From the IMG/VR virus record IMGVR_UViG_3300009537_000005: DNA of 64,000 bases; one strand, given 5' to 3'. Below, piece after piece: positions 4,366 to 58,972 of this stretch. How positions within the stretch are numbered: the first letter of the stretch is position 1; the number at the start of each line of letters is the position of its first letter. The notes beneath the pieces are model-generated. The model was not told the origin of the DNA, did not search any database, and saw only the letters and a program-made list of their open reading frames with translations. The position numbers and the translations under genes were made by a program. The DNA is from a virus.

Positions 4366-4406
4366 TTGACAAATTTACATTTTGATCCCAAAATATATGT
4401 GCAGGG
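4366..4406 (+). promoter_or_regulatory. sigma70-like promoter of family TTGACAAA-N17-CAAAATATA; drives the tRNA/Y RNA array
   Basis: cTTGACAaatttacattttgaTCCCAAAATATAtg; the same 40-nt architecture recurs at 11665, 38232(-), 51676(-) and 58940(-). Confidence 0.6.
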
Positions 4407-4478
4407 GCTAAAACCCCGGTTTGCCCGATAAAAAATTGCCCGGCTACCTAAATGGATGAACGCAGGGCGGGGCAACTC

Positions 4479-4550
4479 GCAGGGCTGATCTAACTGGAAT
4501 GAGCATTGTCTCCAAAACAATGAATCCTCGTTCGAATCGAGGGCCCTGTG
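4479..4550 (+). tRNA. tRNA-Trp (anticodon CCA)
   Basis: Acceptor GCAGGGC/GCCCTGT, anticodon arm ATTGT-CTCCAAA-ACAAT, T-arm CCTCG-TTCGAAT-CGAGG; weak D-stem. Confidence 0.6.
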
Positions 4551-4555
4551 CTTAT

Positions 4556-4626
4556 AGGCGTGTCGTCTAATGGCAAGACGCGAAGCTGTTAACTTCGTTA
4601 TCTAGGTTCGAGTCCTAGCGTGCCTG
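4556..4626 (+). tRNA. tRNA-Asn (GTT)
   Basis: Acceptor AGGCGTG/CGTGCCT, anticodon arm CGAAG-CTGTTAA-CTTCG, T-arm CTAGG-TTCGAGT-CCTAG. Confidence 0.7.
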
Positions 4627-4632
4627 CCTAAT

Positions 4633-4755
4633 GTGAGCCGAAGGGTCGTGGGTTATCATATCAGAAACGTAAAAGTCGCCTCTCGGGGTGAACATACGAA
4701 GGCAGGAGCCGTGATGCCCGGCCATCTCCCATCCCATTCCTTGCTCGCATAACTT
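4633..4755 (+). ncRNA. Y RNA-like ncRNA A (Ro60-binding-type helix; 3' end abuts tRNA-Ala)
   Basis: 5' box GAGCCGAAGGGTCGTGGGTTATCAT pairs with 3' box CCTTGCTC to give GAGC-[C bulge]-GA / UU-GCUC; a pyrimidine tract CCATCTCCCATCCCATTCC precedes the 3' strand; compare human Y RNA 5' GGUCCGAAGGUAGUGAGUUAUC. Confidence 0.65.
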
Positions 4756-4827
4756 GGGGAATTCATATTAACGGGAGTATGCCTCGTTTGCACCGAGGTC
4801 GTGTGGGTTCGAGTCCCTCATTCTCCA
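4756..4827 (+). tRNA. tRNA-Ala (TGC)
   Basis: Acceptor GGGGAAT/ATTCTCC, anticodon arm CCTCG-TTTGCAC-CGAGG, T-loop TTCGAGT; atypical D-arm. Confidence 0.55.
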
Positions 4828-4947
4828 CCTAGCCCGAGTGACGACGGTCACGAGCATATGCCGGGCAAGGTATTCGTCTCTAGCCGCAAATCGAGACGCC
4901 GCTGCGGAAACTGACCTGCCCCGTAGACGCGGTTTGTTAAGGTCCAC

Positions 4948-5019
4948 GCCCCTCTGGTGAAATGGATATCACTCGTGGCTTCGAACCACGCGTTGCGCGT
5001 TCAAGTCGTGCGGGGGGTG
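4948..5019 (+). tRNA. tRNA-Arg (TCG)
   Basis: Acceptor GCCCCTC/GGGGGGT (G-U pairs), D GTGA-loop-TCAC, anticodon arm CGTGG-CTTCGAA-CCACG, T-loop TTCAAGT. Confidence 0.65.
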
Positions 5020-5087
5020 CCTAATCGGGTCGGGGACATAGCGTTACCTGGCTAAAGTCCGCTGTGTCACAAACTTATCCGAAACAT

Positions 5088-5159
5088 GCCGATATAGCTC
5101 AGATGTAGAGCAGTCGCCTTGTAAGCGACAGTGCGTGGACTCGAGAACCACTATCGGCC
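5088..5159 (+). tRNA. tRNA-Thr (TGT) with a non-canonical T-loop
   Basis: Acceptor GCCGATA/TATCGGC, D GCTC-AGATGTA-GAGC, anticodon arm GTCGC-CTTGTAA-GCGAC; T-loop reads CTCGAGA instead of TTCRAAT. Confidence 0.55.
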
Positions 5160-5162
5160 CCA

Positions 5163-5234
5163 GCGGGCTTGGTGTTAGCAGTAGCACGACGGCCTTCCAA
5201 GCCGCAAGGACGAGTGCGAATCTCGTAGCCCGCT
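5163..5234 (+). tRNA. tRNA-Gly (TCC)
   Basis: Perfect acceptor GCGGGCT/AGCCCGC, anticodon loop CTTCCAA, T-arm ACGAG-TGCGAAT-CTCGT. Confidence 0.7.
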
Positions 5235-5363
5235 CTTAAGCAGAATTAGTTTATCTTAGTAAAACGGAGCCTTGCCAAGGCTCAGTGCGGGGAGCATGGC
5301 CCCGATTCTGCTCCTAAGATACTGTCTGAACAGGAGGTTCGAACCCTCCCAGCAGTATCTCAG

Positions 5364-5434
5364 TGCCTCTTAGTCTAGCGGCAGGACTGCGGTCTTTGGA
5401 ACCGTAAGGCGTGGTTCGAATCCACGAGAGGCAT
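5364..5434 (+). tRNA. tRNA-Gln (TTG)
   Basis: U1-A72 acceptor TGCCTCT/AGAGGCA (bacterial Gln-like), anticodon arm GCGGT-CTTTGGA-ACCGT, T-arm CGTGG-TTCGAAT-CCACG. Confidence 0.75.
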
Positions 5435-5437
5435 CCT

Positions 5438-5566
5438 ATGGTTTGGAACAGTCCTTTTGGTACGATTTATATCTCGCCCGACGTATATTTCGTTCTACTC
5501 GTCGTATGGTTATCTTTGCTTGTATATGGTGGAATGTACATCATGGGAGTGTTCGAAGATAAATAA
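5438..5566 (+). CDS. hypothetical 42-aa hydrophobic peptide (MVWNSPFGTIYISPDVYFVLLVVWLSLLVYGGMYIMGVFEDK) between tRNAs
   Basis: Uninterrupted ATG..TAA frame filling the gap between the two tRNA-Gln genes; predicted single TM helix; below the ORF-track size cutoff. Confidence 0.25.
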   Translation: MVWNSPFGTIYISPDVYFVLLVVWLSLLVYGGMYIMGVFEDK

Positions 5567-5639
5567 TCAGGGACGGTGTAATAGGTTGCACGTCCGGCTC
5601 TGAACCGGAAGATTGCAGGTTCGATCCCTGCTCCCTGAT
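5567..5639 (+). tRNA. tRNA-Gln (CTG)
   Basis: U1-A72 acceptor TCAGGGA/TCCCTGA, anticodon arm TCCGG-CTCTGAA-CCGGA, T-arm GCAGG-TTCGATC-CCTGC. Confidence 0.75.
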
Positions 5640-5718
5640 CCTAGAGACACACAACGGACAAGGCTAGAGGCCGCCGAAGGCGGGTGGGTAGCGAGTGGTT
5701 GACCAGTGTCTCTAACAA

Positions 5719-5791
5719 GCCGCTGTAAGATAAAGGACAGTCGCCAATGCTTCTAACATTGGGAGTGGTGGTTCGAATCCATCCAGCGGTG
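5719..5791 (+). tRNA. tRNA-Arg (TCT)
   Basis: Acceptor GCCGCTG/CAGCGGT, anticodon arm CAATG-CTTCTAA-CATTG, T-arm GGTGG-TTCGAAT-CCATC. Confidence 0.65.
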
Positions 5792-5793
5792 CC

Positions 5794-6025
5794 TATATCG
5801 GGGATTGGGAAAGTCTAGCTAATCCGCTCGCCTTGGACGCGAGAGATCGCTGGGGCAGAGCCAGCATCCCCGACCTAGCCCCCACCGGTACCAGTGAGGG
5901 GTGAGCCTAGTTTCGAGGCCAACTATTCTGTGGCTCAACACAATGTTGGTCCCTGCCTTGAGCAAGTAGGCTAGGCAAATGAAACCCGCCCGGCTGTAGC
6001 GTATGCGAAATTCGCCGGGCAATAC
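5794..6025 (+). ncRNA. unassigned structured spacer in the tRNA array (candidate ncRNA)
   Basis: 232 nt with no tRNA fold; nested inverted repeats (GGGGAT..ATCCCC; GCCCGGC-19nt-GCCGGGC); the overlapping minus-strand ORF 5819..6037 has no support. Confidence 0.25.
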
Positions 6026-6107
6026 GGAAGCGCCCAAAGGAGCGGTACGCGGTCTTGAAAACCGTGAGATGTGAAAGCATGTGGGAGTTCGAGTCTCTCC
6101 GCTTCCG
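6026..6107 (+). tRNA. tRNA-Ser (TGA), class II
   Basis: Acceptor GGAAGCG/CGCTTCC, anticodon arm GCGGT-CTTGAAA-ACCGT, long variable arm (about 18 nt), T-arm GGGAG-TTCGAGT-CTCTC. Confidence 0.75.
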
Positions 6108-6256
6108 CCTAAAGGGTCTATCTGCCCCGGCCCCTAGCTATGGGCACATAGCATAAGAGGTCGCATTCTAGAGGGGCTTGGATTGATCCTAGCCCGCTTC
6201 AAGAGATTGCACCATGTCAGAAAGGACAGAGAGCAAACCATTGGCGGGCTAAACGT

Positions 6257-6328
6257 GGGGATTGTAGTTTATGGAGTAAAACCCTGTCTGTGGAACAGGC
6301 GTAAAGGGTGCGAATCCCTTCAATCCTC
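6257..6328 (+). tRNA. tRNA-His (GTG) with encoded G-1
   Basis: Extra 5' G pairs with C73; acceptor GGGATTG/CAATCCT, anticodon arm CCTGT-CTGTGGA-ACAGG, T-arm AAGGG-TGCGAAT-CCCTT. Confidence 0.75.
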
Positions 6329-6334
6329 CCTCAT

Positions 6335-6406
6335 GTGCTTGTAGCTGAGACAGTCTAGCACTCGGTTGAAGCCCGAGAGACACTGGTGCAATTCCAGTCG
6401 AGCACA
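6335..6406 (+). tRNA. tRNA-Phe (GAA)
   Basis: Acceptor GTGCTTG/CGAGCAC, anticodon arm CTCGG-TTGAAGC-CCGAG, T-arm ACTGG-TGCAATT-CCAGT. Confidence 0.75.
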
Positions 6407-6411
6407 CCTAA

Positions 6412-6484
6412 GTCTCTGATGCGAATGGCAAGCGGACCACCTGCAAAGTGGTTACTAACGTGGGTTCGAATCCCACCAGAGACT
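6412..6484 (+). tRNA. tRNA-Cys (GCA)
   Basis: Acceptor GTCTCTG/CAGAGAC, anticodon arm ACCAC-CTGCAAA-GTGGT, T-arm GTGGG-TTCGAAT-CCCAC; 7-nt variable loop. Confidence 0.65.
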
Positions 6485-6505
6485 CCTTAAAACAAACGAA
6501 GAATT

Positions 6506-6577
6506 GGGTTTGTGGCGAAGTGGCATCGCACCAGCCTCTTAAGCTGTGAGTCGGTAGTTCGAATCTACCCAAGCCCA
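6506..6577 (+). tRNA. tRNA-Lys (CTT)
   Basis: Acceptor GGGTTTG/CAAGCCC, D GCGA-AGTGGCAT-CGC, anticodon loop CTCTTAA, T-arm GGTAG-TTCGAAT-CTACC. Confidence 0.7.
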
Positions 6578-6582
6578 CCTAT

Positions 6583-6663
6583 GCAGTTGTGGTGGAACGG
6601 CATACACGCTGGCCTCAAACCCCAGTGGGGAAACCCGTGCAGGTTCGACTCCTGTCAACTGCA
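6583..6663 (+). tRNA. tRNA-Leu (CAA), class II
   Basis: Acceptor GCAGTTG/CAACTGC, D GTGG-AACGGCAT-ACAC, anticodon loop CTCAAAC, 13-nt variable arm, T-arm GCAGG-TTCGACT-CCTGT. Confidence 0.65.
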
Positions 6664-6667
6664 CTAT

Positions 6668-6741
6668 GCAAGCGTGAAGGGAATGGCATACCTCGGTCAT
6701 TTAAAATGACTGGCTTGGTGGTTCGAGTCCACCCGCTTGTA
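6668..6741 (+). tRNA. tRNA with anticodon TAA (Leu codons UUR) but a short class-I variable loop
   Basis: Acceptor GCAAGCG/CGCTTGT, anticodon arm GGTCA-TTTAAAA-TGACT, 5-nt variable loop, T-arm GGTGG-TTCGAGT-CCACC. Confidence 0.55.
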
Positions 6742-6746
6742 CCTAT

Positions 6747-6821
6747 GCCCTCGTAGGAGAATTGGCATATCCGCACGGTTTAGGCCCGTGGTCAATAGTG
6801 GTTCGAATCCACTCGGGGGTA
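6747..6821 (+). tRNA. tRNA with anticodon TAG (Leu codons CUN) but a short class-I variable loop
   Basis: Acceptor GCCCTCG/CGGGGGT, anticodon arm CACGG-TTTAGGC-CCGTG, 6-nt variable loop, T-arm AGTGG-TTCGAAT-CCACT. Confidence 0.55.
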
Positions 6822-6890
6822 CCTTGTGTAAAGTAGTTTAGATTTTTCTTAACTCAAATCCATTTGAGTATAGTTTTCTTTACTCAACGC

Positions 6891-6965
6891 GCGCCGGTAG
6901 CTCCAATCGGTTAGAGCAGGAGTCTTTTAAACTCAAGGCTGGGGGTTCGAATCCCTCGCGGCGCA
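6891..6965 (+). tRNA. tRNA-Lys (TTT)
   Basis: D GCTC-loop-GAGC, anticodon loop CTTTTAA, T-arm GGGGG-TTCGAAT-CCCTC, acceptor GCGCCGG/GCGGCGC (7-66 mismatch). Confidence 0.65.
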
Positions 6966-6970
6966 CTCCT

Positions 6971-7044
6971 GCCATCATAGTCTAGTGGAAGGACGCAAGC
7001 CTTTCAAGCTTGAGGGCGGGGGTCAGTACCCCGTGATGGTACCA
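6971..7044 (+). tRNA. tRNA-Glu (TTC), CCA encoded
   Basis: Glu-like D-arm GTCTAGTGGAAGGAC, anticodon arm CAAGC-CTTTCAA-GCTTG, T-loop GTCAGTA (non-canonical), 3' TGATGGT-A-CCA. Confidence 0.65.
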
Positions 7045-7045
7045 T

Positions 7046-7117
7046 GCTCTTGTAGTCTAGTGGACAGGACGCTACCCTCTCAAGGTAGAAGCCGGGGTTC
7101 AACTCCCCGTGAGAGCA
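7046..7117 (+). tRNA. tRNA-Glu (CTC)
   Basis: GTCTAGTGGACAGGAC D-arm, anticodon arm TACCC-TCTCAAG? read as CTCTCAA loop (CTC), T-arm CGGGG-TTCAACT-CCCCG, acceptor GCTCTTG/TGAGAGC. Confidence 0.6.
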
Positions 7118-7359
7118 CCTAGGCACGGACCAACGCGGCGAAAGCCGAGGAAGCTCGGGACTACATAGGGCAACTCAGTACAGCCACAGAGACGAGTAAA
7201 GTGAAACGGGCCACGGCTGAGAGTTAGCAATCCCAAGTCGTGCGACAGTGACCCGCTGAGAAGCACAGGTAGGGAGCAGTCACTCGTAAAGAGGGACCGT
7301 CACTTAGTGGCGAGACAGATGTTGGTCGATAACAGAATCCCGGCTATAGTGCCTAACAC
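7118..7359 (+). ncRNA. unassigned 242-nt purine-rich structured spacer (candidate ncRNA)
   Basis: No tRNA fold and no ORF; GAAA-containing motifs (GCGGCGAAAGCCGAGG, GAGTAAAGTGAAACGGGCC); flanked by tRNA-Glu and tRNA-Ser. Confidence 0.2.
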
Positions 7360-7443
7360 GGATGGTTGGCAGAGAGGCTAATTGCACTCGGTTGCTAACC
7401 GAGCGGGGTAACACCCACATAGGTTCGAATCCTATACCATCCG
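7360..7443 (+). tRNA. tRNA-Ser (GCT), class II
   Basis: Perfect acceptor GGATGGT/ACCATCC, anticodon arm ACTCGG-TTGCTAA-CCGAG, long variable arm, T-arm ATAGG-TTCGAAT-CCTAT. Confidence 0.75.
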
Positions 7444-7463
7444 CCTGCGTTATCAAAAAGGCT

Positions 7464-7496
7464 AAAATTTCAAAATAACTTCTCTTTTTGGAGATA
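7464..7496 (+). promoter_or_regulatory. conserved upstream element (copy 2)
   Basis: AAAATTTCAAAATAACTTCTCTTTTTGGAGATA. Confidence 0.4.
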
Positions 7497-7498
7497 TA

Positions 7499-7726
7499 AT
7501 GTATGAAGTAAATATGTTTTATCCGGGCAAAGTCAGAAGTAATCTAGAAAAAGAATTTGACGATAAGATATACGGCCGTTGGGCATCCGGCTATAGCTTT
7601 GAAGATAATATCAGAGACATAGCGTTTAGCATTGAAACTCTAGACCTGGTACGAGATTTGATGGCCTACTTACCCTGTGACGGCTGGATTACGGTACGAC
7701 TGAGAGACGGAGTGGTAGAAGCATAA
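7499..7726 (+). CDS. hypothetical small protein embedded in the tRNA array
   Basis: ORF track; preceded by the conserved AAAATTTCAAAATA...CTTTTTGGAGA element plus SD. Confidence 0.35.
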   Translation: MYEVNMFYPGKVRSNLEKEFDDKIYGRWASGYSFEDNIRDIAFSIETLDLVRDLMAYLPCDGWITVRLRDGVVEA

Positions 7727-7736
7727 ATTACTACCC

Positions 7737-7770
7737 TAAAATTTCAAAATAGTCTCGCTTTTTCGGAGAG
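7737..7770 (+). promoter_or_regulatory. conserved upstream element (copy 3)
   Basis: AAAATTTCAAAATAGTCTCGCTTTTTCGGAGAG. Confidence 0.4.
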
Positions 7771-7776
7771 ATTTCC

Positions 7777-7980
7777 ATGCACAAGCAGAATAATCGTTGG
7801 ACTTGGAAAGAGTTTGGTAAGCGGATCAGCCCACACGCTGGATGGTTTAGTAGATGGAGACGTGGTGACGGGAGACTATGGAAAAAGAAGTTAAGTAAGG
7901 CGCGGAGACGAGCGTGGAAAGACCCACACCAACGGGGATTACTAAGTGTCGAGCGGGAATGTAATTGGAAGACATGGTAA
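7777..7980 (+). CDS. hypothetical basic (R/K/W-rich) small protein
   Basis: ORF track; preceded by a second copy of the same conserved upstream element. Confidence 0.35.
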   Translation: MHKQNNRWTWKEFGKRISPHAGWFSRWRRGDGRLWKKKLSKARRRAWKDPHQRGLLSVERECNWKTW

Positions 7981-8195
7981 TGCGTGGATTAGCATACAGA
8001 CGATATCAAATGGATCGTATCAAGAAGAAACGGGCCCACTACTGGGGTGGACACGCTGGTAGTGATCCAAGACTGTTGGGAATAGTTGCTAAAACACCAC
8101 ACCCTTGTAGTGGCTGGTGTTGTGGCAATCCACGGAAGCATTTTGGCGAGAAGACTCGTCAAGAAATAACATGGACGGCTGGCGATCTCGGTTGA
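7965..8195 (+). CDS. hypothetical small protein; 3' end would overlap tRNA-Ile
   Basis: ORF track; overlaps the 5' part of the tRNA called at 8173, so the true extent is uncertain. Confidence 0.2.
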   Translation: MEDMVMRGLAYRRYQMDRIKKKRAHYWGGHAGSDPRLLGIVAKTPHPCSGWCCGNPRKHFGEKTRQEITWTAGDLG

Positions 8196-8247
8196 ACGCG
8201 CTACTCTGATAAGGTAGTATAGGCAGGTTCGAATCCTGCGCCGTCTA
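8173..8247 (+). tRNA. tRNA-Ile (GAT)
   Basis: Acceptor GGACGGC/GCCGTCT, anticodon arm CTACT-CTGATAA-GGTAG, T-arm GCAGG-TTCGAAT-CCTGC. Confidence 0.65.
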
Positions 8248-8252
8248 CTTCT

Positions 8253-8326
8253 GGACTGGAAGCCAATTGGATTGAGGCATCACTCTTATAAGGTGAGTAT
8301 AGCTGGTTCGACTCCAGCCCGGTCTA
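8253..8326 (+). tRNA. tRNA with anticodon TAT (would read the AUA Ile codon)
   Basis: Acceptor GGACTGG/CCGGTCT, anticodon arm TCACT-CTTATAA-GGTGA, T-arm GCTGG-TTCGACT-CCAGC. Confidence 0.55.
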
Positions 8327-8331
8327 CCTAC

Positions 8332-8405
8332 GGCTTGGTAGCTCAATTGGATAGAGCGCCACACTGTCGATGTGGTGGTTGCGGGTTCAAGTCCCGTCCG
8401 AGTCG
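8332..8405 (+). tRNA. tRNA-Asp (GTC)
   Basis: D GCTC-AATTGGAT-AGAGC, anticodon arm CCACA-CTGTCGA-TGTGG, T-arm GCGGG-TTCAAGT-CCCGT. Confidence 0.7.
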
Positions 8406-8411
8406 CCTTTA

Positions 8412-8566: not shown

Positions 8567-8573
8567 CCTATAT

Positions 8574-8886: not shown

Positions 8887-8892
8887 CTTAGT

Positions 8893-10826: not shown

Positions 10827-10834
10827 ACAGTGAT

Positions 10835-10865
10835 CCCGGCACCCAGCCGGGGTCATTCTCTTTTG
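10835..10865 (+). terminator. candidate intrinsic terminator after rsr
   Basis: CCCGGC-ACCCA-GCCGGG hairpin followed by GTCATTCTCTTTTG. Confidence 0.35.
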
Positions 10866-11613: not shown

Positions 11614-11664
11614 TGTAGCGAAGGGTACTAGAAGAGTGACTATCAGAGAAAATGGTTTTGGGAC

Positions 11665-11697
11665 TTGACAAATTGTAAATTTGGTCCCAAAATATAG
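11665..11697 (+). promoter_or_regulatory. promoter of the TTGACAAA-N17-CAAAATATA family upstream of the primase gene
   Basis: cTTGACAaattgtaaatttgGTCCCAAAATATAgg; the -10 ends only a few nt before the GTG/ATG, so the mRNA is nearly leaderless. Confidence 0.5.
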
Positions 11698-12600
11698 GTG
11701 ACGGACATGACCGACTTATACGACAAGATAACGGAGATTCTACCAAACTTTGACGAAGTGGGCAGGGGATACATACATACTTACTGTGTATTTCACGACG
11801 ACCGCCAAAAGTCGTTACTGATTTATCCCGACGCTCGCGGCTACACTCCCGGCTTTGTGTGCTTATCGGGCGAATGTAATCGTAGAGGTAGCCTACAAGA
11901 ATTGCTACGAGTTTTAGAGGGTGCACCCCCGCGACCTCGTCACAACTCGGAAAAGGAGAAACCCCCTTATCTTCCGACCGATCTGCATGATCTGATTAAT
12001 TTGACCAATGTGGCACATCGGGATATTCAAGACTCTGAACATCCAGAACGACGACATTATCTGAAACAGAGGGGCGTAGAGGACATGATTGTCCCTGCTC
12101 GTTTAGGATGGTACAAAGGATGGATTTTAACACCCATATATGCTCAGTCTCTAAAGAAACTGGTCGGTGTCTATGCGAGAGCTACTCCGGCGGAGTTCGG
12201 CCGGACTGGCCAGAGATTTCACCAACCCCTAGGCCAGAGGCCGATGTTGTACGTGCCGAACTGGGACATTTGCCTATCGTCCTCCCATGTGGTTGTCGTA
12301 TTTGGTATGATGGACGCTCTAACCTTGTCGCTTATGTTACAACCAGTTGTGACCACCACCGGGGGAAGCAACAGCTTCGACCCGGCATGGCTGTCACAAT
12401 TTCGTTTGCCGATAACGATCATACCGGACGCTAGCGGAGACAGTAAGGCGGCGATAAACTTAGCGGCACAGCTTGGGTGGAGAAGCAAAATACTAAGACT
12501 TCCATACGACGAACAAGTACAAGACCCGGCAGATTTTGCAGAATATGGCCGGTTGAACGAGTTGAAAGGGGTTCTAGATGAAATTGGTGCATTGTCCTGA
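11698..12600 (+). CDS. DNA primase (DnaG-like: CHC2 zinc finger plus TOPRIM)
   Basis: CVFHDDRQKS...C...C zinc-binding N-terminus; IIPDASGDSKAAINLA Toprim acidic motif; the start may be ATG 11707. Confidence 0.6.
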   Translation: MTDMTDLYDKITEILPNFDEVGRGYIHTYCVFHDDRQKSLLIYPDARGYTPGFVCLSGECNRRGSLQELLRVLEGAPPRPRHNSEKEKPPYLPTDLHDLINLTNVAHRDIQDSEHPERRHYLKQRGVEDMIVPARLGWYKGWILTPIYAQSLKKLVGVYARATPAEFGRTGQRFHQPLGQRPMLYVPNWDICLSSSHVVVVFGMMDALTLSLMLQPVVTTTGGSNSFDPAWLSQFRLPITIIPDASGDSKAAINLAAQLGWRSKILRLPYDEQVQDPADFAEYGRLNELKGVLDEIGALS

Positions 12601-38174: not shown

Positions 38175-38231
38175 CTAAGATGCCTCCATTTAATTGTTCG
38201 GTAGTTAAGTGAAAAAGCTAAACTACCGTCT

Positions 38232-38267
38232 ATGTATATTTTGGGACCATTTCATTCGTTTGTCAAG
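38232..38267 (-). promoter_or_regulatory. minus-strand promoter of the TTGACAAA family (scaffold/capsid operon)
   Basis: Reverse complement reads gtcTTGACAaacgaatgaaatgGTCCCAAAATATAcatag. Confidence 0.55.
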
Positions 38268-38289
38268 ACATTTGTGCCAATTTGTGCAT

Positions 38290-38320
38290 TACCAACACAT
38301 AAAACGGTCCTAAAATATAC
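38290..38320 (+). promoter_or_regulatory. divergent plus-strand variant promoter pointing into the 3' end of the giant minus-strand gene
   Basis: TTACCA-N16-TAAAATATAcATG; shares the GGTCCTAAAATATA core; would give an antisense or leaderless transcript over ORF 38321..38578. Confidence 0.3.
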
Positions 38321-38477
38321 ATGGGAGACGTTTATCGACTGGGGAAGATATTGATTTTGCCCATCCAACCCAAATTCAGATGGGTTAGTAATTATCATCC
38401 CAGATGCGAGGGTAATCTGATAGATTATGCTTCCCGCTGTAAGCGGGGCTGTTGGCCCCTGAATTATTCTCATAAGA

Positions 38478-51570: not shown

Positions 51571-51675
51571 GATTTGGGTCTTTTCAATTGTGTTTCGAAT
51601 TACAACTGATGTGACTAATGAAATGCCGACGAAGCGCCTATCGTCTCGTTTTTCTTCGGGCGTGGCGCTCCTCTA

Positions 51676-51710
51676 AGTATATTTTGGGATCATAAGGACG
51701 TTTTGTCAAG
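51676..51710 (-). promoter_or_regulatory. minus-strand promoter of the TTGACAAA family (packaging operon)
   Basis: Reverse complement reads gttcTTGACAaaacgtccttatgaTCCCAAAATATActtag. Confidence 0.55.
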
Positions 51711-51969
51711 AACTTCCCTTAAATTCGGGGTCATTTATCGCAAAATTCGCTCCCAAAGCGGCCAAAAGTTGTAAAATATCTGTTCTAGTGATCGCCGGAT
51801 CAGTTATTGATAGTCTTGTGTACACTTCTTCTACCAAAGTTCGCATTTTCGAGCGCTCAGAGCGTTCCATTTTCATTAGAGCGCTCGAAAACACTTTTCG
51901 GCCGGTGTATTGAAGTTCGGCGGCGAGTTTACTTGTTGTACTTCCCATTTTCTTGCTCCATAAGCTCAT
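51706..51969 (-). CDS. hypothetical small protein
   Basis: ORF track. Confidence 0.3.
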   Translation of the reverse strand: MSLWSKKMGSTTSKLAAELQYTGRKVFSSALMKMERSERSKMRTLVEEVYTRLSITDPAITRTDILQLLAALGANFAINDPEFKGSS

Positions 51970-54599: not shown

Positions 54600-55591
54600 T
54601 GAAGTAATTCTCCTTTTTTCACGTCTCTATCCAACCGATGACGCACAAATTTTGCTACATTTAACTTGGTTGGATACAAACCCCCCGGTTTCATGGGAGA
54701 CTGTATCGCTATATGATATTCTTTTATTTTCGTTCCTTTTTTCAAATCCCTTCCCCAATAGAGACTATGTGCCATTTTTTGAATCGGCGCAATTTCGGAC
54801 TTCATTGGTTGGTCTCGCCATTCTAACGCCCTGGCTGTGCGGTTTAGGTACTTAACGTACTGTTGGAGCCCGAAAAACTCCAAAGAGAACCTGTGGTCGG
54901 TTCCTTTTGCGTTGTGATCCAAGGTTATGTGCTTTTCAAAGACTCTGGCTCCAAGAGCATATGCCGCCGCCCCAAGCTCAATCCCATCCTGGTGGTCTGA
55001 CAAACCAATTGGAATGTACGGGAATGTTTCCTGAAGAACCGAAATCCTTCGAAGATTCATCATATCAGGTGGACAGGGATACGCTGCTACGCAGTGGAGG
55101 ATTGTTAGAGGATAATCCACAGGAAAAAGCGATACAGTTCTTATTATCGAATTTACAGACTGTCCTCCTACTGACATAATTGTCGGTTTGCCTGTTTTTA
55201 CAATTTCGCAAACTAAAAGATGATTTGTAACGTGGGCCGACGCGATTTTGTACTTACTAACATCTAATTTCTCTAAAAACTTTACGGATGGAATATCAAA
55301 CGGAGTAACGAAAAATTCTAGACCTTTTGATTCCGCGTATTGCTTTAGGGTCTCAAATTCGCTGGTTCCGAACTCTAGGGCTTCTCTGTGAGCCCCATAA
55401 GTCGGTCCGTAGCCATCATATGGCCTATTAAACATTTCGTCCGTATATAAACTTCGATTGTCCCGCTTTTGAAATTTTACGGCGTCTGTACCAGCTAGAT
55501 GTGCCATATCAATCAGCTTGTGAGCATCTTGAAGACTGCCATTGTGATTACCGCCAATTTCTGCTATGATGTAGGGGCTATTGTTGTCCAT
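54581..55591 (-). CDS. NeuB-family nonulosonic acid synthase (sialic/pseudaminic/legionaminic acid synthase)
   Basis: YIIAEIGGNHNGSLQDAHKLIDMAHLAGTDAVKFQKR is the classic NeuB signature; C-terminal SAF-like segment. Confidence 0.8.
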   Translation of the reverse strand: MDNNSPYIIAEIGGNHNGSLQDAHKLIDMAHLAGTDAVKFQKRDNRSLYTDEMFNRPYDGYGPTYGAHREALEFGTSEFETLKQYAESKGLEFFVTPFDIPSVKFLEKLDVSKYKIASAHVTNHLLVCEIVKTGKPTIMSVGGQSVNSIIRTVSLFPVDYPLTILHCVAAYPCPPDMMNLRRISVLQETFPYIPIGLSDHQDGIELGAAAYALGARVFEKHITLDHNAKGTDHRFSLEFFGLQQYVKYLNRTARALEWRDQPMKSEIAPIQKMAHSLYWGRDLKKGTKIKEYHIAIQSPMKPGGLYPTKLNVAKFVRHRLDRDVKKGELLQCEQIR

Positions 55592-55802
55592 AAAGTATTA
55601 ATCCTAGTATTCCTAGTACTACAAGAGAAGTTATTGATACAGCAATCCACGCTAAAAATAACTCCACATAGGTATCGCCAAAATAATCGTCTGGCTGTCC
55701 GTCGTTGTCTTTGTCTTGCCAAGGCCACTTCACTATAAACCTCCTGTTGAAAATCCACCGTCGCCGTTCCATAGTGATGTAGTAGTAAGAACGCCGTTCC
55801 AT
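55578..55802 (-). CDS. small membrane protein
   Basis: ORF track; one TM helix. Confidence 0.3.
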   Translation of the reverse strand: MERRSYYYITMERRRWIFNRRFIVKWPWQDKDNDGQPDDYFGDTYVELFLAWIAVSITSLVVLGILGLILYGQQ

Positions 55803-55984
55803 GGTGATGTAGTAGGGAAAACCAAACCACCCGACCGAAAGTCTGGTGTACCGTTGGAACTGGCGACATATTTCGATAGTTCTGGCAGTCTACTTGCCGG
55901 TAGTCCCGCTCCACATCCCGAACATTGCAACTGGGTTTCCCCGTCGTTCGCCTGGTTGCAATATTCACATTTTATTCTTCTCAT
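55733..55984 (-). CDS. small zinc-ribbon protein
   Basis: CEYC...CSGC. Confidence 0.3.
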   Translation of the reverse strand: MRRIKCEYCNQANDGETQLQCSGCGAGLPASRLPELSKYVASSNGTPDFRSGGLVFPTTSPWNGVLTTTSLWNGDGGFSTGGL

Positions 55985-56130
55985 AATTTATTCCCCTTTC
56001 CATTCAAAGGTTGTAACATATAGAATTCCTACGAAGCATTTGAATATAGAAAATCCAAATGATCGTGCATCTTTCCACTCTGTCGGTTCATTCCACGTAA
56101 AAGCAATTGGTAAAGTGGGAAACGGTTGAA

Positions 56131-56904
56131 TTACCATGCGCAGTAACCTCCGTCGATCAAAACCTGCTGGCCAGCAAACTCTGGACACTCTATTGCGAAT
56201 CTGAGGGCGGCTCGCCAACTTTGTTCGCTAATTGCTCTACCCAACGGAACGTTTTTAAAAAACTTTTCTTTGAATTCATCGGGAAGTCCCTTATCCAGCG
56301 GTCCGAAAGCAATGGTAACGGACCGAATATTGTGGCTTCCGTACTGTACGGTAATTGACCTTGATAATTGAATAAGTGCCGCTTTCGAGAGGTTGTAGGC
56401 AACTGGTTTTTCAAATCCCTCGTCATAGTTCCTCCAATCGGCACCAATGTTACCCATGATGCTACCAATGTTGATTATTACTCCTCCTCCGATGGCCTTC
56501 ATCCCCGGAATAAATGCCTTTGCGACATTAGCCGACCCGACAAGGTTCACATTGAGTATTTTTTCCATGTCTCCGAAAAAAGTGGCTCCAGAGCCGGGTG
56601 GATTGTCAATCGCCGCGTTGTTAACCACAACAGATGGTATTATGCCCTCTTCAAACAAATCGGCGGCATAGGCTCGCAACAAATCGGGGTTTGTTACATC
56701 ATATAGAGGCAAATCATAGCTAAAGACCTCATAACCCATCCGTGTTAGTTCGTCTATCCAGATTGGCCCCACCCGTCCGCTTCCGCCCGTTACTACTGCG
56801 TACTTCACGTACGTCGGTGGGGATGCCAATGAGGCCAAGCTTCTTTCCCAGTCAAAGTTAAAGTATTCTCCTACTTTCCAGTTGACCATTGTGTCTTGTT
56901 TCAT
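56131..56904 (-). CDS. short-chain dehydrogenase/reductase (SDR)
   Basis: TGGSGRVG Rossmann motif, NNAA, catalytic YNLSK (YxxxK). Confidence 0.7.
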   Translation of the reverse strand: MKQDTMVNWKVGEYFNFDWERSLASLASPPTYVKYAVVTGGSGRVGPIWIDELTRMGYEVFSYDLPLYDVTNPDLLRAYAADLFEEGIIPSVVVNNAAIDNPPGSGATFFGDMEKILNVNLVGSANVAKAFIPGMKAIGGGVIINIGSIMGNIGADWRNYDEGFEKPVAYNLSKAALIQLSRSITVQYGSHNIRSVTIAFGPLDKGLPDEFKEKFFKNVPLGRAISEQSWRAALRFAIECPEFAGQQVLIDGGYCAW

Positions 56905-58166
56905 GCCGATATCCTCACATACGTTGGTTCGCTTTTCTTTAACGCTGTTTTGAGGGTCGTATATATTTCATCAGGCGCTGGTTGGATTACATCCATTAAA
57001 TTTCCGATATACTCGGCGTCGTCAAGGCTTTGATGACTGATACCCGGCCCGGATGGGTCTAGAGGCCCCGCCATAGTTCCAATGTACACTACAGCTGTTC
57101 CTTCAGTAAGCTGGTTGTAAATTTGTTCGAATGCCCGGCGAATGAAACAAGCATAGGTAGCAAAAATCGGCTTTTGTCCCATCAAGGCGCGGGCCGAGGC
57201 AAAGGAGACTGCGTTTTGCTCCGCAATACCAAAGTCAAATACTCTATCAGGAAATTTTTCGCGAAGGTCGTATAAATGGAGGTCTCGCGCAGTATCGGCC
57301 GTAACCAAAATAACATCCTCATCGTTTTCCATAATCTTCTTGACCGATAGGCCCAGGGCTTTCATCTTTGAATTTTCTGGAAGCTCCGCTCCGGGCGCTC
57401 CGAAATGTGATTCTACTGTTCCTTCAAATTCCGTTCCCTTTCCTTTTGTTGTTATAAGAACAACCAGCCACGGGCCGCTCTCGCGATGCTCCTCTACCGT
57501 ATCTAAAATAAGATTAATCTCATCTAGGTCGTTTCCGTTCTCTGTACCTGCTACACTCCATCCAGCACCAACAAACATTTTTACAATTCGGTCTGTTGTG
57601 AGTTCAGTGGGCCCGTCTTGACTGAATTGGTTATAGTCGACGATAGCAACAATATTATTGACTTCATAATTTGCTGCCGCCAAGGCCGCCTCCCAATTCT
57701 GTCCCTCCATCATCTCCCCGTCGCCTAGAAGGACGTAAACCATTCTATCTTGGTCGAGGGCAAATCCAAGGGCTTTGGAAAGCCCCATTCCCAACGAACC
57801 GGTATTCGCCTCGATTCCGGGTATGTCCACGGTGGGATGACCGGGCAGGCCACCGTTGTTTCTGAAAGTATCCAACCGTCCCACATCAAGAATCCCACTC
57901 TCGGCCAGTACGGCATACTGTGCCAATGCGTCGTGTCCTTTTGAGGAGATAAATATGTCATCTTCATCCATCCTGTCCCTGATCGCTACGATAGCATCCA
58001 GCGACGATAAGGACGTTCCTAGGTGCCCCTTGCCCGCTTTCTCGACGATTTCAATAATTCGGGCTCGTAGCCGCTCGATCATTTCTTTACGTTCTTCTTT
58101 AGTGCCGCTAAGTGCTTCGTCGTCTTTTGTACTGTCGGGTGTGTCTTCTTTTCTTTTATAGGGCAT
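56901..58166 (-). CDS. transketolase-like thiamine-diphosphate enzyme (TPP-binding and Pyr domains in one 421-aa chain)
   Basis: GH...GSLGMGLS TPP-binding region and FGIAEQNAVSFASA pyrimidine-binding region. Confidence 0.65.
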   Translation of the reverse strand: MPYKRKEDTPDSTKDDEALSGTKEERKEMIERLRARIIEIVEKAGKGHLGTSLSSLDAIVAIRDRMDEDDIFISSKGHDALAQYAVLAESGILDVGRLDTFRNNGGLPGHPTVDIPGIEANTGSLGMGLSKALGFALDQDRMVYVLLGDGEMMEGQNWEAALAAANYEVNNIVAIVDYNQFSQDGPTELTTDRIVKMFVGAGWSVAGTENGNDLDEINLILDTVEEHRESGPWLVVLITTKGKGTEFEGTVESHFGAPGAELPENSKMKALGLSVKKIMENDEDVILVTADTARDLHLYDLREKFPDRVFDFGIAEQNAVSFASARALMGQKPIFATYACFIRRAFEQIYNQLTEGTAVVYIGTMAGPLDPSGPGISHQSLDDAEYIGNLMDVIQPAPDEIYTTLKTALKKSEPTYVRISA

Positions 58167-58177
58167 TGTTTGTCTCC

Positions 58178-58486
58178 TTACCTTAATTCCTTTATTTTAA
58201 CAACAGCTTTACGTGGAATAATCATCATTGCATCTCCGTCTCTCGGCTGTTGATTTTCTTCTTCTCCTTTAGAACATCCAGTCCACGCAAAACTTTGTAG
58301 AAGTCCAATTCGATCTTTTTCGTCTATAAGTAAATAGCCAATGGTTCTGCATTGTAGAGATACATTACGCCCACCACTTTCGTAGTTCTCTAATTCAAGC
58401 CAACCGGTGCGTAAATGACTGTCAACCCACGTAACTTCAACTTTTTGATTTTTTCTCATTGTTCTCTCCCAACCGTTGACTTCCAT
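58178..58486 (-). CDS. hypothetical protein
   Basis: ORF track. Confidence 0.35.
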   Translation of the reverse strand: MEVNGWERTMRKNQKVEVTWVDSHLRTGWLELENYESGGRNVSLQCRTIGYLLIDEKDRIGLLQSFAWTGCSKGEEENQQPRDGDAMMIIPRKAVVKIKELR

Positions 58487-58737
58487 AAGGGGTCAACATA
58501 ATCTTCTTCCTTTCGATTTTTTTCCCACCAGTCCTTCTTATCCCCGTCTAGGTCTCCAACCTCTCGCAAGATATACCAACTGAGAAATACCTCCAGCATT
58601 TGGCCGACAAAAGTTAGGCCCGCTAAAATAAGAATTGCCCACTCCATTACCATAGCTCCGTAATTCGTAATGCCACCAAAATTAGAATGGTACCCATCGT
58701 TTATTCCTCCCCCGGTTTTTGTTCGGGCGGGTTCCAT
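58456..58737 (-). CDS. hypothetical membrane protein
   Basis: ORF track; TM helix; first gene after the promoter at 58940-58972. Confidence 0.35.
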   Translation of the reverse strand: MEPARTKTGGGINDGYHSNFGGITNYGAMVMEWAILILAGLTFVGQMLEVFLSWYILREVGDLDGDKKDWWEKNRKEEDYVDPLWKSTVGREQ

Positions 58738-58939
58738 AGGTCTTCTCGTATAAATATGCCGTTACAATCGCCATGAGGCCGTGCTATAACGTCCGGCGGT
58801 GTGATGTCGAGCGGTACTTCCAATTCCCACTGGGCGTCACAAAACTGGCAATCATAGGTATAAATCCAGGTTCCGTCCAATTAAGTTCTCCTGCTTAATT
58901 TACTCTAGGTTAAGTGAAAAGGCTTAACTCCCCTTCACC

Positions 58940-58972
58940 TATATATTGGGACCAAAACCTCGTTTTGTCAAC
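58940..58972 (-). promoter_or_regulatory. minus-strand promoter of the TTGACAAA family (sugar-cluster operon)
   Basis: Reverse complement reads ggggTTGACAaaacgaggttttgGTCCCAATATATAggtg. Confidence 0.55.

What the first reader, a model, noticed from the sequence alone, without database searches (positions are those of the whole stretch)
4366..58972. A 40-nt conserved promoter family TTGACAAA-N14-(G/A)TCC-CAAAATATA present in six copies, including a divergent back-to-back pair
Copies are at 4366-4406 (+, tRNA array), 11665-11697 (+, primase operon), 38232-38267 (-, scaffold/capsid), 51676-51710 (-, packaging) and 58940-58972 (-, sugar cluster), plus a weaker + copy at 38290-38320. All share a perfect -35 TTGACA, a 17-nt spacer ending in TCC, and CAAAATATA. 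The conservation extends well beyond sigma70 contacts, which suggests recognition by a phage-modified RNAP or a phage factor. The same motif heads the tRNA/Y RNA array, a replication operon and several structural operons. The 38232/38290 pair is divergent, and the + member fires antisense into the 3' end of the 2270-aa gene.
Basis: seen in the sequence. Interest (0 to 1): 0.5.

Follow-up and report, generated by a model that had tools for sequence, protein, structure and literature searches.

The report
Conserved phage middle/late promoter family
An uncultured deep-sea-sediment phage starts its five large non-early gene blocks with near-identical copies of a bacterial-type promoter that carries extra conserved bases; the family is real and conserved in relatives, but it is an ordinary kind of phage feature.

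Summary
Five near-identical sites, (gGGrC)TTGACAAA-N9-TG-R-TCC-CAA(A/T)AT-ATA-nnT-R, lie at +4366, +11665, -38266, -51709 and -58971. All are intergenic and point into the downstream operon. The sixth copy (+38288) matches only the -10-proximal half, has no -35, and is absent from two relatives.

Relatives at about 70% DNA identity carry the motif at the same five positions (14 sites). The -35 (TTGAC), the 17-nt spacer, A-11 and T-7 never change, while the N9 spacer and flanks drift. This is the signature of a primary-sigma (sigma70-type) promoter.

Also conserved are AA(-29/-28), T-20, TG(-18/-17), TCC(-15..-13), ATA(-6..-4) and T-1/R+1. A second family with a different spacer and an extended -10 (TTGACT-N18-TGG-TAAACT-ATA, five + strand copies) heads the small early genes.

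Family A is therefore most likely the delayed (middle/late) class. Its class-specific spacer element is probably read by a regulator, but this is unproven. No phage sigma or RNA polymerase was found in this clade. Verdict: a new member of a known kind, of modest interest.

The parts
4360..4405 (+). Family A site S1 (-41..+5). TTGACA at 4366-4371, CAAAAT at 4389-4394, predicted start G4401. Heads the tRNA array, RNase P-like RNA, YrlA-like RNA and Ro60 operon. Subclass A1 (TGGGGC at -41..-36).
   Evidence: Orthologous sites precede the tRNA arrays of relatives: L017 4185 and L015 211.
11659..11704 (+). Family A site S2. TTGACA at 11665-11670, CAAAAT at 11688-11693, predicted start G11700, only 7 nt before the primase ATG at 11707. 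Heads the replication block (primase, helicase, PolA, UDG, RecA-like, nuclease). Subclass A1 (TGGGAC at -41..-36, a 9-bp inverted repeat of GTCCCAAAA).
   Evidence: Orthologues are L015 9948, L016 709 and L017 10050.
38227..38272 (-). Family A site S3. TTGACA at 38266-38261, predicted start A38231. Heads the 292-aa ORF (scaffold by position only; no family hit), the N4-gp56-type major capsid gene and the downstream virion genes. Subclass A2 (no upstream GGGRC).
   Evidence: Orthologues are L002 3792 and L014 8453.
51670..51715 (-). Family A site S4. TTGACA at 51709-51704, where the TGA inside it is the stop codon of the upstream ORF 51706-51969. Predicted start A51674. Heads the 195-aa ORF, large terminase, putative portal (weak hit only), LysM protein and the 2270-aa ORF. 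Subclass A2.
   Evidence: Orthologues are L006 7958 and L004 2629.
58932..58977 (-). Family A site S5. TTGACA at 58971-58966, -10 CAATAT, predicted start G58936. Heads the sugar (NeuB / cytidylyltransferase / SDR / transketolase-like) block. Subclass A1 (TGGGGG at -41..-36).
   Evidence: The orthologue L006 304 carries TTGACG...GGTCCTAAAGTATA.
38288..38327 (+). Weak sixth copy: ATTACC-N17-TAAAAT-ATA. It matches only the -10-proximal half (cGGTCCTAAAATATAcat). It would fire antisense to the 3' end of the 2270-aa ORF. It is not conserved in relatives, so its function is doubtful.
   Evidence: 17.9 bits; 5 mismatches; absent from L002 and L014.
60267..60302 (+). Context: Family B (early-type) promoter, TTGACT-N18(ACGTCGTAAA..TGG)-TAAACT-ATA. 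This is the first of four copies at the start of the + strand arm of small ORFs.
60662..60697 (+). Context: Family B promoter copy.
61328..61363 (+). Context: Family B promoter copy.
62350..62385 (+). Context: Family B promoter copy.
3447..3482 (+). Context: Family B variant, TTGACA-N18(ACGTCGTAAA)-GATAAT-ATA, inside the small-ORF region just upstream of S1.
61106..61345 (+). Early ORF (79 aa) with a PC4-like single-stranded-DNA-binding domain. It is the only early product with a nucleic-acid-binding family assignment above the curated threshold, and is a purely speculative candidate co-factor.
   Evidence: PF02229, E 3.1e-10, 39.8 bits against a cut-off of 25.
10829..10857 (+). Intrinsic-terminator-like hairpin (12 pairs, 7 G-C, then a T-run) that closes the S1 operon after the Ro60 gene and before S2.

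Best explanation
Family A is the promoter set of the phage's delayed (middle plus late) transcription class. The five copies head the five large non-early gene blocks in the window: tRNA/Ro60, replication, sugar metabolism, packaging/portal and head/tail. The host RNA polymerase carrying its primary (sigma70-type) sigma binds TTGACA at -35 and (C/T)AAnAT at -10 across a 17-nt spacer. It starts at the conserved purine 7 nt downstream of the hexamer.

The bases conserved outside the hexamers and specific to this family are AA at -29/-28, T-20, TG at -18/-17, R-16 and TCC at -15..-13. In the tRNA, replication and sugar copies there is also GGGRC at -40..-36. I infer that these bases are a class signal read by a regulator, probably an early phage product. 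That regulator would set the timing or strength of this class relative to the early Family B promoters, which have a different conserved spacer and an extended -10.

Shown here: the sites, their positions, their conservation pattern and the existence of two families. Inferred: which polymerase and sigma act, where transcription starts, and whether any factor is involved.
For: - **Sites and placement.** There are five near-identical copies, all intergenic and co-oriented with the downstream operon.
- **Conservation in relatives.** 14 sites from the window and from relatives' contigs at about 67-78% DNA identity occupy the same five positions.
- **Pattern of variation.** In these 14 sites TTGAC, the 17-nt spacing, A-11 and T-7 are invariant. 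The -10 hexamer itself varies (CAAAAT, CAAGAT, CAATAT, TAAAGT). The N9 spacer and the flanks carry about 0-0.5 bit. That is the pattern expected if sigma regions 4 and 2 read the site.
- **Start site.** T-1 occurs in 13/14 sites and R+1 in 14/14. Most predicted transcripts begin with a hairpin within 0-4 nt of +1, and the three S3 orthologues achieve this with different sequences.
- **A second family.** Family B has a sigma70-like -35, an extended -10 (TGG-TAAACT) and a different conserved spacer. It lies only before small + strand ORFs. Two classes read by the same polymerase type therefore differ mainly in spacer elements.
- **No phage sigma in this clade.** A sigma70_r2/r4 gene exists only in a distant clade (49% capsid identity). 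That clade has a different motif, aTTTgC...GCTATAATA, at the scaffold site and just upstream of the primase gene. No homologue appears in the window, nor on the 69,284-, 73,734-, 44,752- or 26,335-bp contigs of this clade.
- **No phage RNA polymerase family** was found in any ORF tested.
- **Subclasses.** GGGRC at -40..-36 is present in 8/8 sites of S1, S2 and S5 and in 0/6 sites of S3 and S4 (virion genes), across all genomes.
- **Precedent.** Host-RNAP-dependent phages such as YuA and 14-1 have highly conserved promoter motifs that appear to need phage factors (PMC10914365).
Against: - There are no transcription data, so the start sites and the acting polymerase are inferred from sequence only.
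- A consensus -35 at 17 nt from CAAAAT resembles strong factor-independent phage promoters. From my own knowledge, lambda PL is TTGACA-17-GATACT. No factor may therefore be required.
- The 14 sites represent only five independent loci in closely related genomes, so the middle-versus-late split rests on 3 loci against 2.
- No DNA-binding regulator was identified. The only early-gene hit above threshold is a PC4-like ssDNA-binding domain, whose known phage homologue is linked to replication.
- About 5.3 kb of the source contig lies outside the window and could not be fetched.
- The 2270-aa ORF has no recognisable family.
- RTCCCAA is not depleted elsewhere in the genome (32 observed against 18 expected), so there is no sign of avoidance of a factor site.
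Confidence: 0.5

Rival explanations
1. These are plain, factor-independent strong host-sigma70 promoters. The extra conserved bases reflect common descent of the copies, copy-to-copy homogenisation, and selection for optimal contacts with the host polymerase itself (sigma region 3 and the beta' zipper at -18..-13, and an AT-rich discriminator). They are not a regulator site.
For: The -35 is perfect, the spacer is 17 nt, and A-11 and T-7 are present. The ATA discriminator is shared with Family B, so at least that part is not class-specific. No regulator, sigma or RNA polymerase was found.
Against: Family B shows that the same phage, and presumably the same host polymerase, uses a quite different spacer (ACGTCGTAAA..TGG) with an extended -10. 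TCC and TG(-18/-17) are therefore not a general requirement. These positions stay invariant at five loci in at least four relatives' contigs while the neighbouring N9 bases are free. A lytic phage that fires tRNA, replication and virion genes from one unregulated promoter type would have no temporal control of these blocks.
Confidence: 0.28
2. The promoters are read by an alternative host sigma of the heat-shock (sigma32/RpoH) type, or are dual sigma70/sigma32 promoters. The C before TTGA and the CCC run immediately upstream of A-11 resemble CTTGAA-N-CCCCATnT.
For: C-36 occurs in 11/14 sites, and C-14, C-13, C-12 and A-11 are conserved in 13-14 of 14. In sigma32 promoters the -35 is CTTGAA, and the CC at -15/-14 acts as an 'extended -10' read by K130; the dnaKp1 sequence is CCCCCTTGAAGACGTGGTTTACGACCCCATTTA (PMC10216364).
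Against: Position 5 of the -35 is C in 14/14 sites (TTGACA, the sigma70 consensus), not A. Position -15 is T, not C. Positions -10 and -8 are A, not T. The distance from -35 to A-11 is 1 bp longer than in dnaKp1 (my count). The host is unknown, so its RpoH consensus cannot be checked.
Confidence: 0.1
3. The contiguous conserved block from -20 to +5 (T-TGRTCCCAAnATATAnnTRnAnG) is the promoter of a phage-encoded polymerase or sigma-like specificity factor. That factor would be encoded either in the 5.3 kb outside the window or by an unrecognisable protein such as the 2270-aa ORF. TTGACA would then be a separate or auxiliary element.
For: The length and position of the block are similar to single-subunit RNA polymerase promoters (-17..+6; my own knowledge). 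The 2270-aa ORF has no detectable family. A distant relative does encode its own sigma. The capsid protein is of the N4-gp56 type, and N4-like phages carry a giant virion polymerase (my own knowledge).
Against: An invariant TTGAC at an invariant 17-nt distance from an NAnnnT hexamer in 14/14 sites is hard to explain without sigma regions 4 and 2. The base right after TATA is variable, so there is no fixed initiating G. No RNA polymerase or sigma family was hit in any ORF tested, and no sigma homologue lies on this clade's contigs. Virion polymerases serve early genes, whereas the early region here has classic extended -10 sigma70 promoters.
Confidence: 0.07
4. The repeats are not promoters. 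They could instead be a repeated recombination, packaging or replication signal, or a mobile cassette.
For: None specific; this is only the general possibility for any dispersed repeat.
Against: All five copies are intergenic and oriented with the downstream genes. Only about 32-46 nt are conserved, with a free N9 core. The conservation follows the -35/-10 pattern, and there are no flanking repeats or associated genes.
Confidence: 0.03

Closest known systems
Strong sigma70-type phage promoters (e.g. lambda PL/PR, T7 A1; recalled from my own knowledge)
   Same: A -35 of TTGACA or TTGACT, a 17-nt spacer, and a -10 hexamer with a non-T first base but with A at position 2 and T at position 6. They are read by unmodified host holoenzyme.
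   Different: Family A additionally conserves -29/-28, -20..-13 and -6..-4 across all copies and across related genomes. Its -10 (CAAAAT) matches TATAAT at only 4 of 6 positions. No experiment exists for it.
Highly conserved 'phage-specific' promoter motifs in host-RNAP-dependent phages (Pseudomonas phages YuA and 14-1; PMC10914365)
   Same: Several copies of a highly conserved motif are spread over the genome of a phage without its own polymerase. The motif is conserved among relatives and is suspected to need a phage-encoded factor.
   Different: The YuA and 14-1 motifs do not resemble bacterial promoters and were inactive alone in reporter assays. Family A contains a consensus -35 and a plausible -10.
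N4 late transcription: host sigma70 holoenzyme activated by the phage single-stranded-DNA-binding protein (my own knowledge)
   Same: The capsid protein is of the N4-gp56 type. The virion genes lie on the strand opposite the early and replication genes. Host-type promoters precede the virion genes. There is an early ssDNA-binding-fold protein (PC4-like).
   Different: No virion polymerase, RNAPII or N4 SSB homologue was detected. The early promoters here are sigma70-type, not hairpin promoters. The same motif also heads the replication genes and the tRNAs.
Phage-encoded sigma systems (phiEco32 / 7-11 type; PMC8948821 and PMC4331800, listed)
   Same: Early genes use host sigma70 promoters, and later genes use a distinct conserved promoter motif. 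A distant relative of this phage does encode a sigma70_r2/r4 protein.
   Different: No sigma gene was found in this clade. The sigma-encoding clade uses a different motif, aTTTgC...GCTATAATA.
sigma32 (RpoH) heat-shock promoters, CTTGAA-N-CCCCATnT (PMC10216364)
   Same: A C precedes TTGA, and a C-run lies directly upstream of A-11.
   Different: Family A has TTGACA rather than TTGAAA, T at -15, A at -10 and -8, and a spacing 1 bp longer.

Membership tests
Primary-sigma (sigma70-type) -35/-10 promoter | -35 hexamer close to TTGACA | tested here: met
   TTGACA in 12/14 sites and TTGACG in 2/14. The weak sixth copy fails (ATTACC).
Primary-sigma (sigma70-type) -35/-10 promoter | -10 hexamer with A at position 2 and T at position 6, 16-18 nt from the -35 | tested here: met
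   The hexamers are CAAAAT, CAAGAT, CAATAT and TAAAGT. A-11 and T-7 are present in 14/14 sites and the spacer is 17 nt in 14/14. The generic scan lists the sites at 10/12 matches.
Primary-sigma (sigma70-type) -35/-10 promoter | Located upstream of a transcription unit and co-oriented with it | tested here: met
   5/5 sites are intergenic and co-oriented. The same holds in relatives.
Primary-sigma (sigma70-type) -35/-10 promoter | Initiation by host holoenzyme at a purine 6-8 nt after the -10 | not testable with these tools
   Only sequence-level consistency is available: T-1 in 13/14 sites, R+1 in 14/14, and 5'-proximal hairpins.
sigma32 (RpoH) promoter | CTTGAA(A) at -35 and CCCCATnT at -10, with CC at -15/-14 | tested here: not met
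   C-36 is present in 11/14 sites and C-14..C-12 plus A-11 are present. However -31 is C in 14/14 sites, -15 is T in 14/14, -10 is A in 14/14, and -8 is A (G in one site).
Single-subunit (T7-like) or N4-type phage RNA polymerase promoter | A phage-encoded RNA polymerase gene in the genome | tested here: inconclusive
   No RNA polymerase family was hit in any ORF tested, and the 2270-aa ORF has no Pfam, PHROG or PDB-sequence match. The 5.3 kb of the contig outside the window was not seen, and no structure prediction was made.
Single-subunit (T7-like) or N4-type phage RNA polymerase promoter | A contiguous conserved block about -17..+6 with a fixed initiating base (T7 type), or a hairpin promoter (N4 virion polymerase) | tested here: not met
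   A block from -20 to +5 is conserved. The base after TATA varies, and the separate invariant TTGAC at a fixed distance is not a feature of such promoters. No conserved stem-loop spans the motif: the TGGGAC/GTCCCA repeat is found only in S1, S2 and S5 and has a 19-nt gap.
Phage-encoded sigma-dependent promoter (phiEco32, SPO1 type) | A sigma-family gene in the phage genome | tested here: not met
   tblastn with the distant clade's sigma finds nothing in the window or the close relatives' loci. The database search finds homologues only on the 75,995-bp contig and on short contigs, none on this clade's contigs. Pfam scans of the early ORFs give no sigma hit.
T4-type middle promoter (MotA/AsiA sigma appropriation) | A MotA box centred at about -30 replacing the -35, with a good -10 (my own knowledge) | tested here: not met
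   A canonical TTGACA -35 is retained in all copies.

The most novel reading that the evidence does not exclude
Family A is not a stand-alone sigma70 promoter. It would need an unidentified phage-encoded specificity factor that reads the T-TGRTCC element at -20..-13, with GGGRC at -40..-36 marking a 'middle' subclass (tRNA, replication, sugar genes) as against a 'late' subclass (virion genes). That would be a new way of re-targeting host RNA polymerase in an uncultured deep-sea-sediment phage lineage.
Probability: 0.3. Interest if true: 0.55.

Novelty: new member of a known kind. Interest (0 to 1): 0.3.

Why it matters
The finding gives an operon map and a likely two-class (early versus delayed) transcription programme for an uncultured phage lineage from deep-sea sediments that has no cultured relatives. 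This lineage carries unusual cargo: about 27 tRNAs, a Ro60/Y-RNA module, an RNase P-like RNA and a nonulosonic-acid pathway.

The two promoter families are compact, well-defined test objects for in vitro transcription. They could also help to predict the host and to look for a new polymerase-directing factor. In itself, a conserved sigma70-like promoter family in a phage is expected biology.

Tried and rejected
- **Wrong spacing.** My first pattern used wrong spacing (N12 between TTGACAAA and RTCC) and gave 0 hits. The true gap is N11.
- **No matches in phage collections.** The exact-motif scan of IMG/VR found nothing. Capsid and terminase searches of IMG/VR found no relatives. INPHARED gave no DNA match and only about 23-32% protein matches to uncultured phages and to Agrobacterium phage OLIVR. 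There is therefore no cultured relative and no host.
- **Unrelated motif hits.** The other metagenome hits (L001, L003, L005, L007) and all four genome hits (Chryseobacterium, a Rhodospirillaceae MAG and others) lack the TG and have no similarity to the window. I treat them as chance matches, so no host promoter of this type was found.
- **Source contig not retrievable.** Three look-ups aimed at the missing 5.3 kb failed because the source contig is not in the position index.
- **Phage sigma hypothesis.** This was rejected for this clade.
- **N4-like scheme.** The 2270-aa ORF shows no polymerase or any other family.
- **Factor-site avoidance.** RTCCCAA is not depleted elsewhere, with 32 observed against 18 expected, so this test is uninformative.
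- **Family B in relatives.** It was not found, but the fetched loci barely cover the early regions.
- **Hairpin or cruciform reading.** The TGGGAC...GTCCCA repeat is only a 6-9 bp stem with a 19-nt gap and is absent from S3 and S4, so I rejected it as a general feature.
- **Possible seventh copy.** A partial GTCCTAAAAT on the - strand at about 60195 has no -35 and is compatible with chance.

Full report
**What is in the sequence**

Aligned on TTGACA (first T at +4366, +11665, -38266, -51709, -58971) they read (g)GGrC-TTGACAAA-N9-TG-R-TCC-CAA(A/T)AT-ATA-nnT-R.
- Within the window, 21 of 32 positions are invariant.
- TCCCAAAATATA occurs exactly four times and twice more with one mismatch, and those are the six reported places.
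- A matrix built from the five sites scores them 50-55 bits, which is circular. It scores the sixth place 17.9 bits and everything else 3.7 bits or less, against at most 13.1 bits in 20 shuffles.
- The title's 'N14' is a miscount.
- The sixth copy (+38288) has only the -10-proximal half (cGGTCCTAAAATATAcat) and no -35 (ATTACC).

**Genomic setting**

The window is most of a 69,284-bp metagenomic phage contig.
- The + strand carries small ORFs (60361-64000 and 1-4353), a 27-tRNA array (4479-9127), a Ro60/TROVE gene, and then primase, helicase, PolA, UDG, a RecA-like protein and a nuclease.
- The - strand (58737 down to 23010) carries a sugar block (transketolase-like, SDR, NeuB, cytidylyltransferase, methyltransferase). 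It continues with the large terminase, a 620-aa ORF with a weak connector/adaptor hit (probably the portal), a LysM protein, a 2270-aa ORF and a 292-aa ORF with no family hit that sits where a scaffold gene would. Then come an N4-gp56-type major capsid protein, tail genes and a lysozyme.
- Each strong copy lies in an intergenic gap at the head of one of these blocks and points into it. S1 heads the tRNA/Ro60 block, which ends at a strong terminator at 10829-10857. S2 heads replication, S5 sugar, S4 packaging down to the 2270-aa ORF, and S3 head and tail.
- In S4 the TGA inside TTGACA is the stop codon of the preceding ORF.

**Relatives**

- No cultured phage is similar, and IMG/VR has neither the motif nor close capsid or terminase relatives.
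- An exact-motif scan of metagenomes found two relatives, SDBU01000846.1 and SDBT01050139.1. They are 67-78% identical to the window over kilobases and come from deep-sea sediment projects.
- Capsid and primase homologues led to further contigs.
- In these relatives the motif sits at the orthologous places: before the tRNA array (L017 4185, L015 211), before primase (L015 9948, L016 709, L017 10050), before the scaffold/capsid genes (L002 3792, L014 8453), before the packaging genes (L006 7958, L004 2629), and before the sugar block (L006 304).
- The remaining metagenome and genome hits (Chryseobacterium and others) lack the TG and share no other similarity. About that many hits are expected by chance for some 20 specified bases in collections of this size (my estimate).

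**Pattern of conservation (14 sites)**

- Invariant: T-35 T G A C-31, T-18, G-17, T-15, C-14, C-13, A-11, A-10, T-7 and A-6.
- Nearly invariant: A-30, A-29, A-28, T-20, C-12, A-8, T-5, A-4, T-1, purine at +1, A+3 and G+5.
- The nine spacer bases from -27 to -19 (except T-20) and the flanks carry roughly 0-0.5 bit.
- The hexamer 17 nt from TTGACA varies (CAAAAT, CAAGAT, CAATAT, TAAAGT; TAAAAT in the weak copy), but never at its second (A) or sixth (T) base.
- This is what selection on a sigma70-family -10 element produces, and it fixes the register of the promoter. The predicted starts are G4401, G11700, A38231, A51674 and G58936.
- Most predicted transcripts begin with a hairpin within four bases of +1. 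The three S3 orthologues do so with different sequences. This fits 5'-terminal stabilising hairpins but is only suggestive, with z-scores from -2 to -2.8 in four of eight.
- S2 is the exception. Its predicted start is 7 nt before the primase ATG at 11707. That ATG is the start used for the database protein P0037. Short leaders recur in the relatives.

**A second promoter family**

The small-ORF region has its own family, TTGACT-CnCACGTCGTAAAnnTGG-TAAACT-A(T/G)A.
- Copies lie at +60267, +60662, +61328 and +62350, with a variant TTGACA-N18-GATAAT-ATA at +3447.
- It has an 18-nt spacer, an extended -10 (TGn) and a better -10 hexamer.
- Its position, before short ORFs of unknown function at the start of the + arm, is that of an early class.
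- It matters for the finding in two ways. First, the ATA after the -10 is common to both families, so it is not a Family A signal. Second, the polymerase that reads this phage does not need TCC or TG(-18/-17). Those bases and AA(-29/-28) are therefore the features specific to Family A.

**Subclasses**

GGGRC directly upstream of the -35 (consensus TnGGGrC at -41..-36) is present in all eight S1, S2 and S5 sites. In S2 it forms a 9-bp inverted repeat with GTCCCAAAA. It is absent from all six S3 and S4 sites, in every genome examined. The split coincides with tRNA, replication and metabolic genes against virion genes. It rests on only five independent loci, so I treat it as a lead.

**The sixth copy**

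The + strand copy at 38288 is 22 bp from S3 and would run antisense to the 3' end of the 2270-aa ORF. A 14-mer with one mismatch is unlikely by chance (about 0.02 expected, my arithmetic). However, the site lacks a -35 and the region is not conserved in L002 or L014. Its predicted start falls inside the ATG of the 85-aa ORF that follows. I regard it as a partial duplicate of doubtful function.

**Who reads Family A?**

- A distant clade (49% capsid identity; the 75,995-bp contig) encodes a sigma70_r2/r4 protein. It carries a different motif, aTTTgC...GCTATAATA, at the scaffold site and just upstream of the primase gene, and its early promoters have an extended -10.
- That sigma has no homologue in the window or the close relatives' loci. 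In the protein database it has homologues only on that clade's contigs, none on the 69,284-, 73,734-, 44,752- or 26,335-bp contigs.
- No ORF tested hits an RNA polymerase family, and the 2270-aa ORF hits nothing at all.
- Among the early products, only a 79-aa PC4-like ssDNA-binding domain passes a curated threshold. A neighbouring Zn-ribbon hit is sub-threshold.
- The most economical reading is therefore host holoenzyme with its primary sigma.
- The C before TTGA and the CCC before A-11 recall sigma32 promoters (CTTGAA...CCCCATTT, with CC at -15/-14 as an extended -10; PMC10216364). But C-31, T-15, A-10, A-8 and the spacing do not fit.

**Is a factor needed?**

This is open.
- For a factor: class-specific bases are held invariant at five loci across several related contigs next to freely drifting bases. 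A second class exists with a different spacer. There is also a possible middle/late sub-signal.
- Against a factor: the core promoter looks self-sufficient, and no regulator was found.
- Precedents exist for conserved promoter motifs in host-dependent phages that seem to need phage factors (YuA and 14-1; PMC10914365).

**Verdict**

This is a real, conserved promoter family and very probably the delayed transcription class of a novel uncultured phage. It is a new member of a known kind. The mechanistic suggestion of a modified polymerase or a phage factor is plausible but unproven.

Noticed in passing
window 7120-7359 (+); L017 7978-8279: Inside the phage tRNA array, a 240-nt stretch aligns end to end with bacterial RNase P RNA class A (RF00010). 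It scores 49.4 bits, below the gathering score of 100, with E 1.4e-14 to 3.7e-13. The GAGGAAgcUCgGG and ACAGAAuCC core strands and GCCACAGA are present, but the specificity-domain helices are deleted. A relative has the same hit (50.8 bits). This may be a miniature phage-encoded RNase P RNA.
   Followed up: partly
window 8907-9015 (+) and 9183-10826 (+); L015 6275-6384 and 6951-8588: A YrlA-like Y RNA (RF02553) matches the full model at 43.4 bits, below the gathering score of 69, with E 3e-7. It lies at the end of the tRNA array, just upstream of a Ro60 orthologue (TROVE plus Ro60 vWA, E 1e-49 to 1e-64). The same pair occurs in a relative. This looks like a phage-borne Ro60/Y RNA module transcribed from S1.
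   Followed up: partly
window 3447-3482, 60267-60302, 60662-60697, 61328-61363, 62350-62385 (+): A second, distinct conserved promoter family reads TTGACT-N18(ACGTCGTAAA..TGG)-TAAACT-ATA, with an extended -10. All copies lie before small + strand ORFs, so it is the likely early class. Three spacers contain the dyad CACGT-N5-ACGTG.
   Followed up: partly
window 61106-61345 (+): An early 79-aa ORF carries a PC4 (transcriptional coactivator p15) ssDNA-binding domain (PF02229, E 3e-10). The next ORF (61376-61648) has a weak, sub-threshold DksA/TraR-type Zn-ribbon hit.
   Followed up: partly
L018 5037-5831; L012 9114; L018 9807: A distant clade of the same phage group (49% capsid identity) encodes its own sigma70_r2/r4 protein. 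At the scaffold site and just upstream of the primase gene it has a different motif, aTTTgC...GCTATAATA. The window's clade has no such sigma.
   Followed up: partly
window 38478-45290 (-): A 2270-aa ORF lies between the LysM protein and the scaffold/capsid genes. It has no Pfam, PHROG or PDB-sequence match. It is conserved in relatives at 2241 aa in L014 and 2082 aa in L012. It may be an ejected internal protein or a very divergent virion enzyme.
   Followed up: partly
window 58972-59447: A 476-nt non-coding, G-rich stretch lies upstream of S5. It contains repeated ...AATCACGTAGG... units and runs of GGGG. Part of it (59027-59122) is conserved in L006. Its function is unknown.
   Followed up: no
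window 11700-11709 (+); L017 ~10085; L015 ~9983: The primase mRNA would have a leader of only 7 nt (GACGGAC-AUG) with no Shine-Dalgarno sequence. The leader would be 6 nt in L017 and 18 nt in L015. Translation would therefore be nearly leaderless.
   Followed up: no
window 51706-58166 (-): The S5 operon encodes a NeuB-family nonulosonic-acid synthase, a cytidylyltransferase-like protein, an SDR, a transketolase-like protein (N-terminal and pyrimidine-binding domains only), a methyltransferase and a 410-aa protein with a C2H2-like zinc finger. This amounts to a phage-borne sugar-modification pathway.
   Followed up: partly
window 38182-38231 (-) and 58887-58936 (-): The S3 and S5 leaders share AGTTwAGCyTTTTCACTTAAC. 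Most Family A transcripts are predicted to start with a hairpin within 4 nt of +1.
   Followed up: partly
window 62596-62670 (+): An isolated tRNA-Glu(CTC) lies in the early region, far from the array, which already holds a tRNA-Glu(CTC) at 7046-7119.
   Followed up: no
window ~60186-60199 (-): A partial resemblance to the -10 half of Family A (aGTCCTAAAATccc) lies upstream of the 223-aa - strand ORF 59448-60119. It has no -35 and is compatible with chance.
   Followed up: partly
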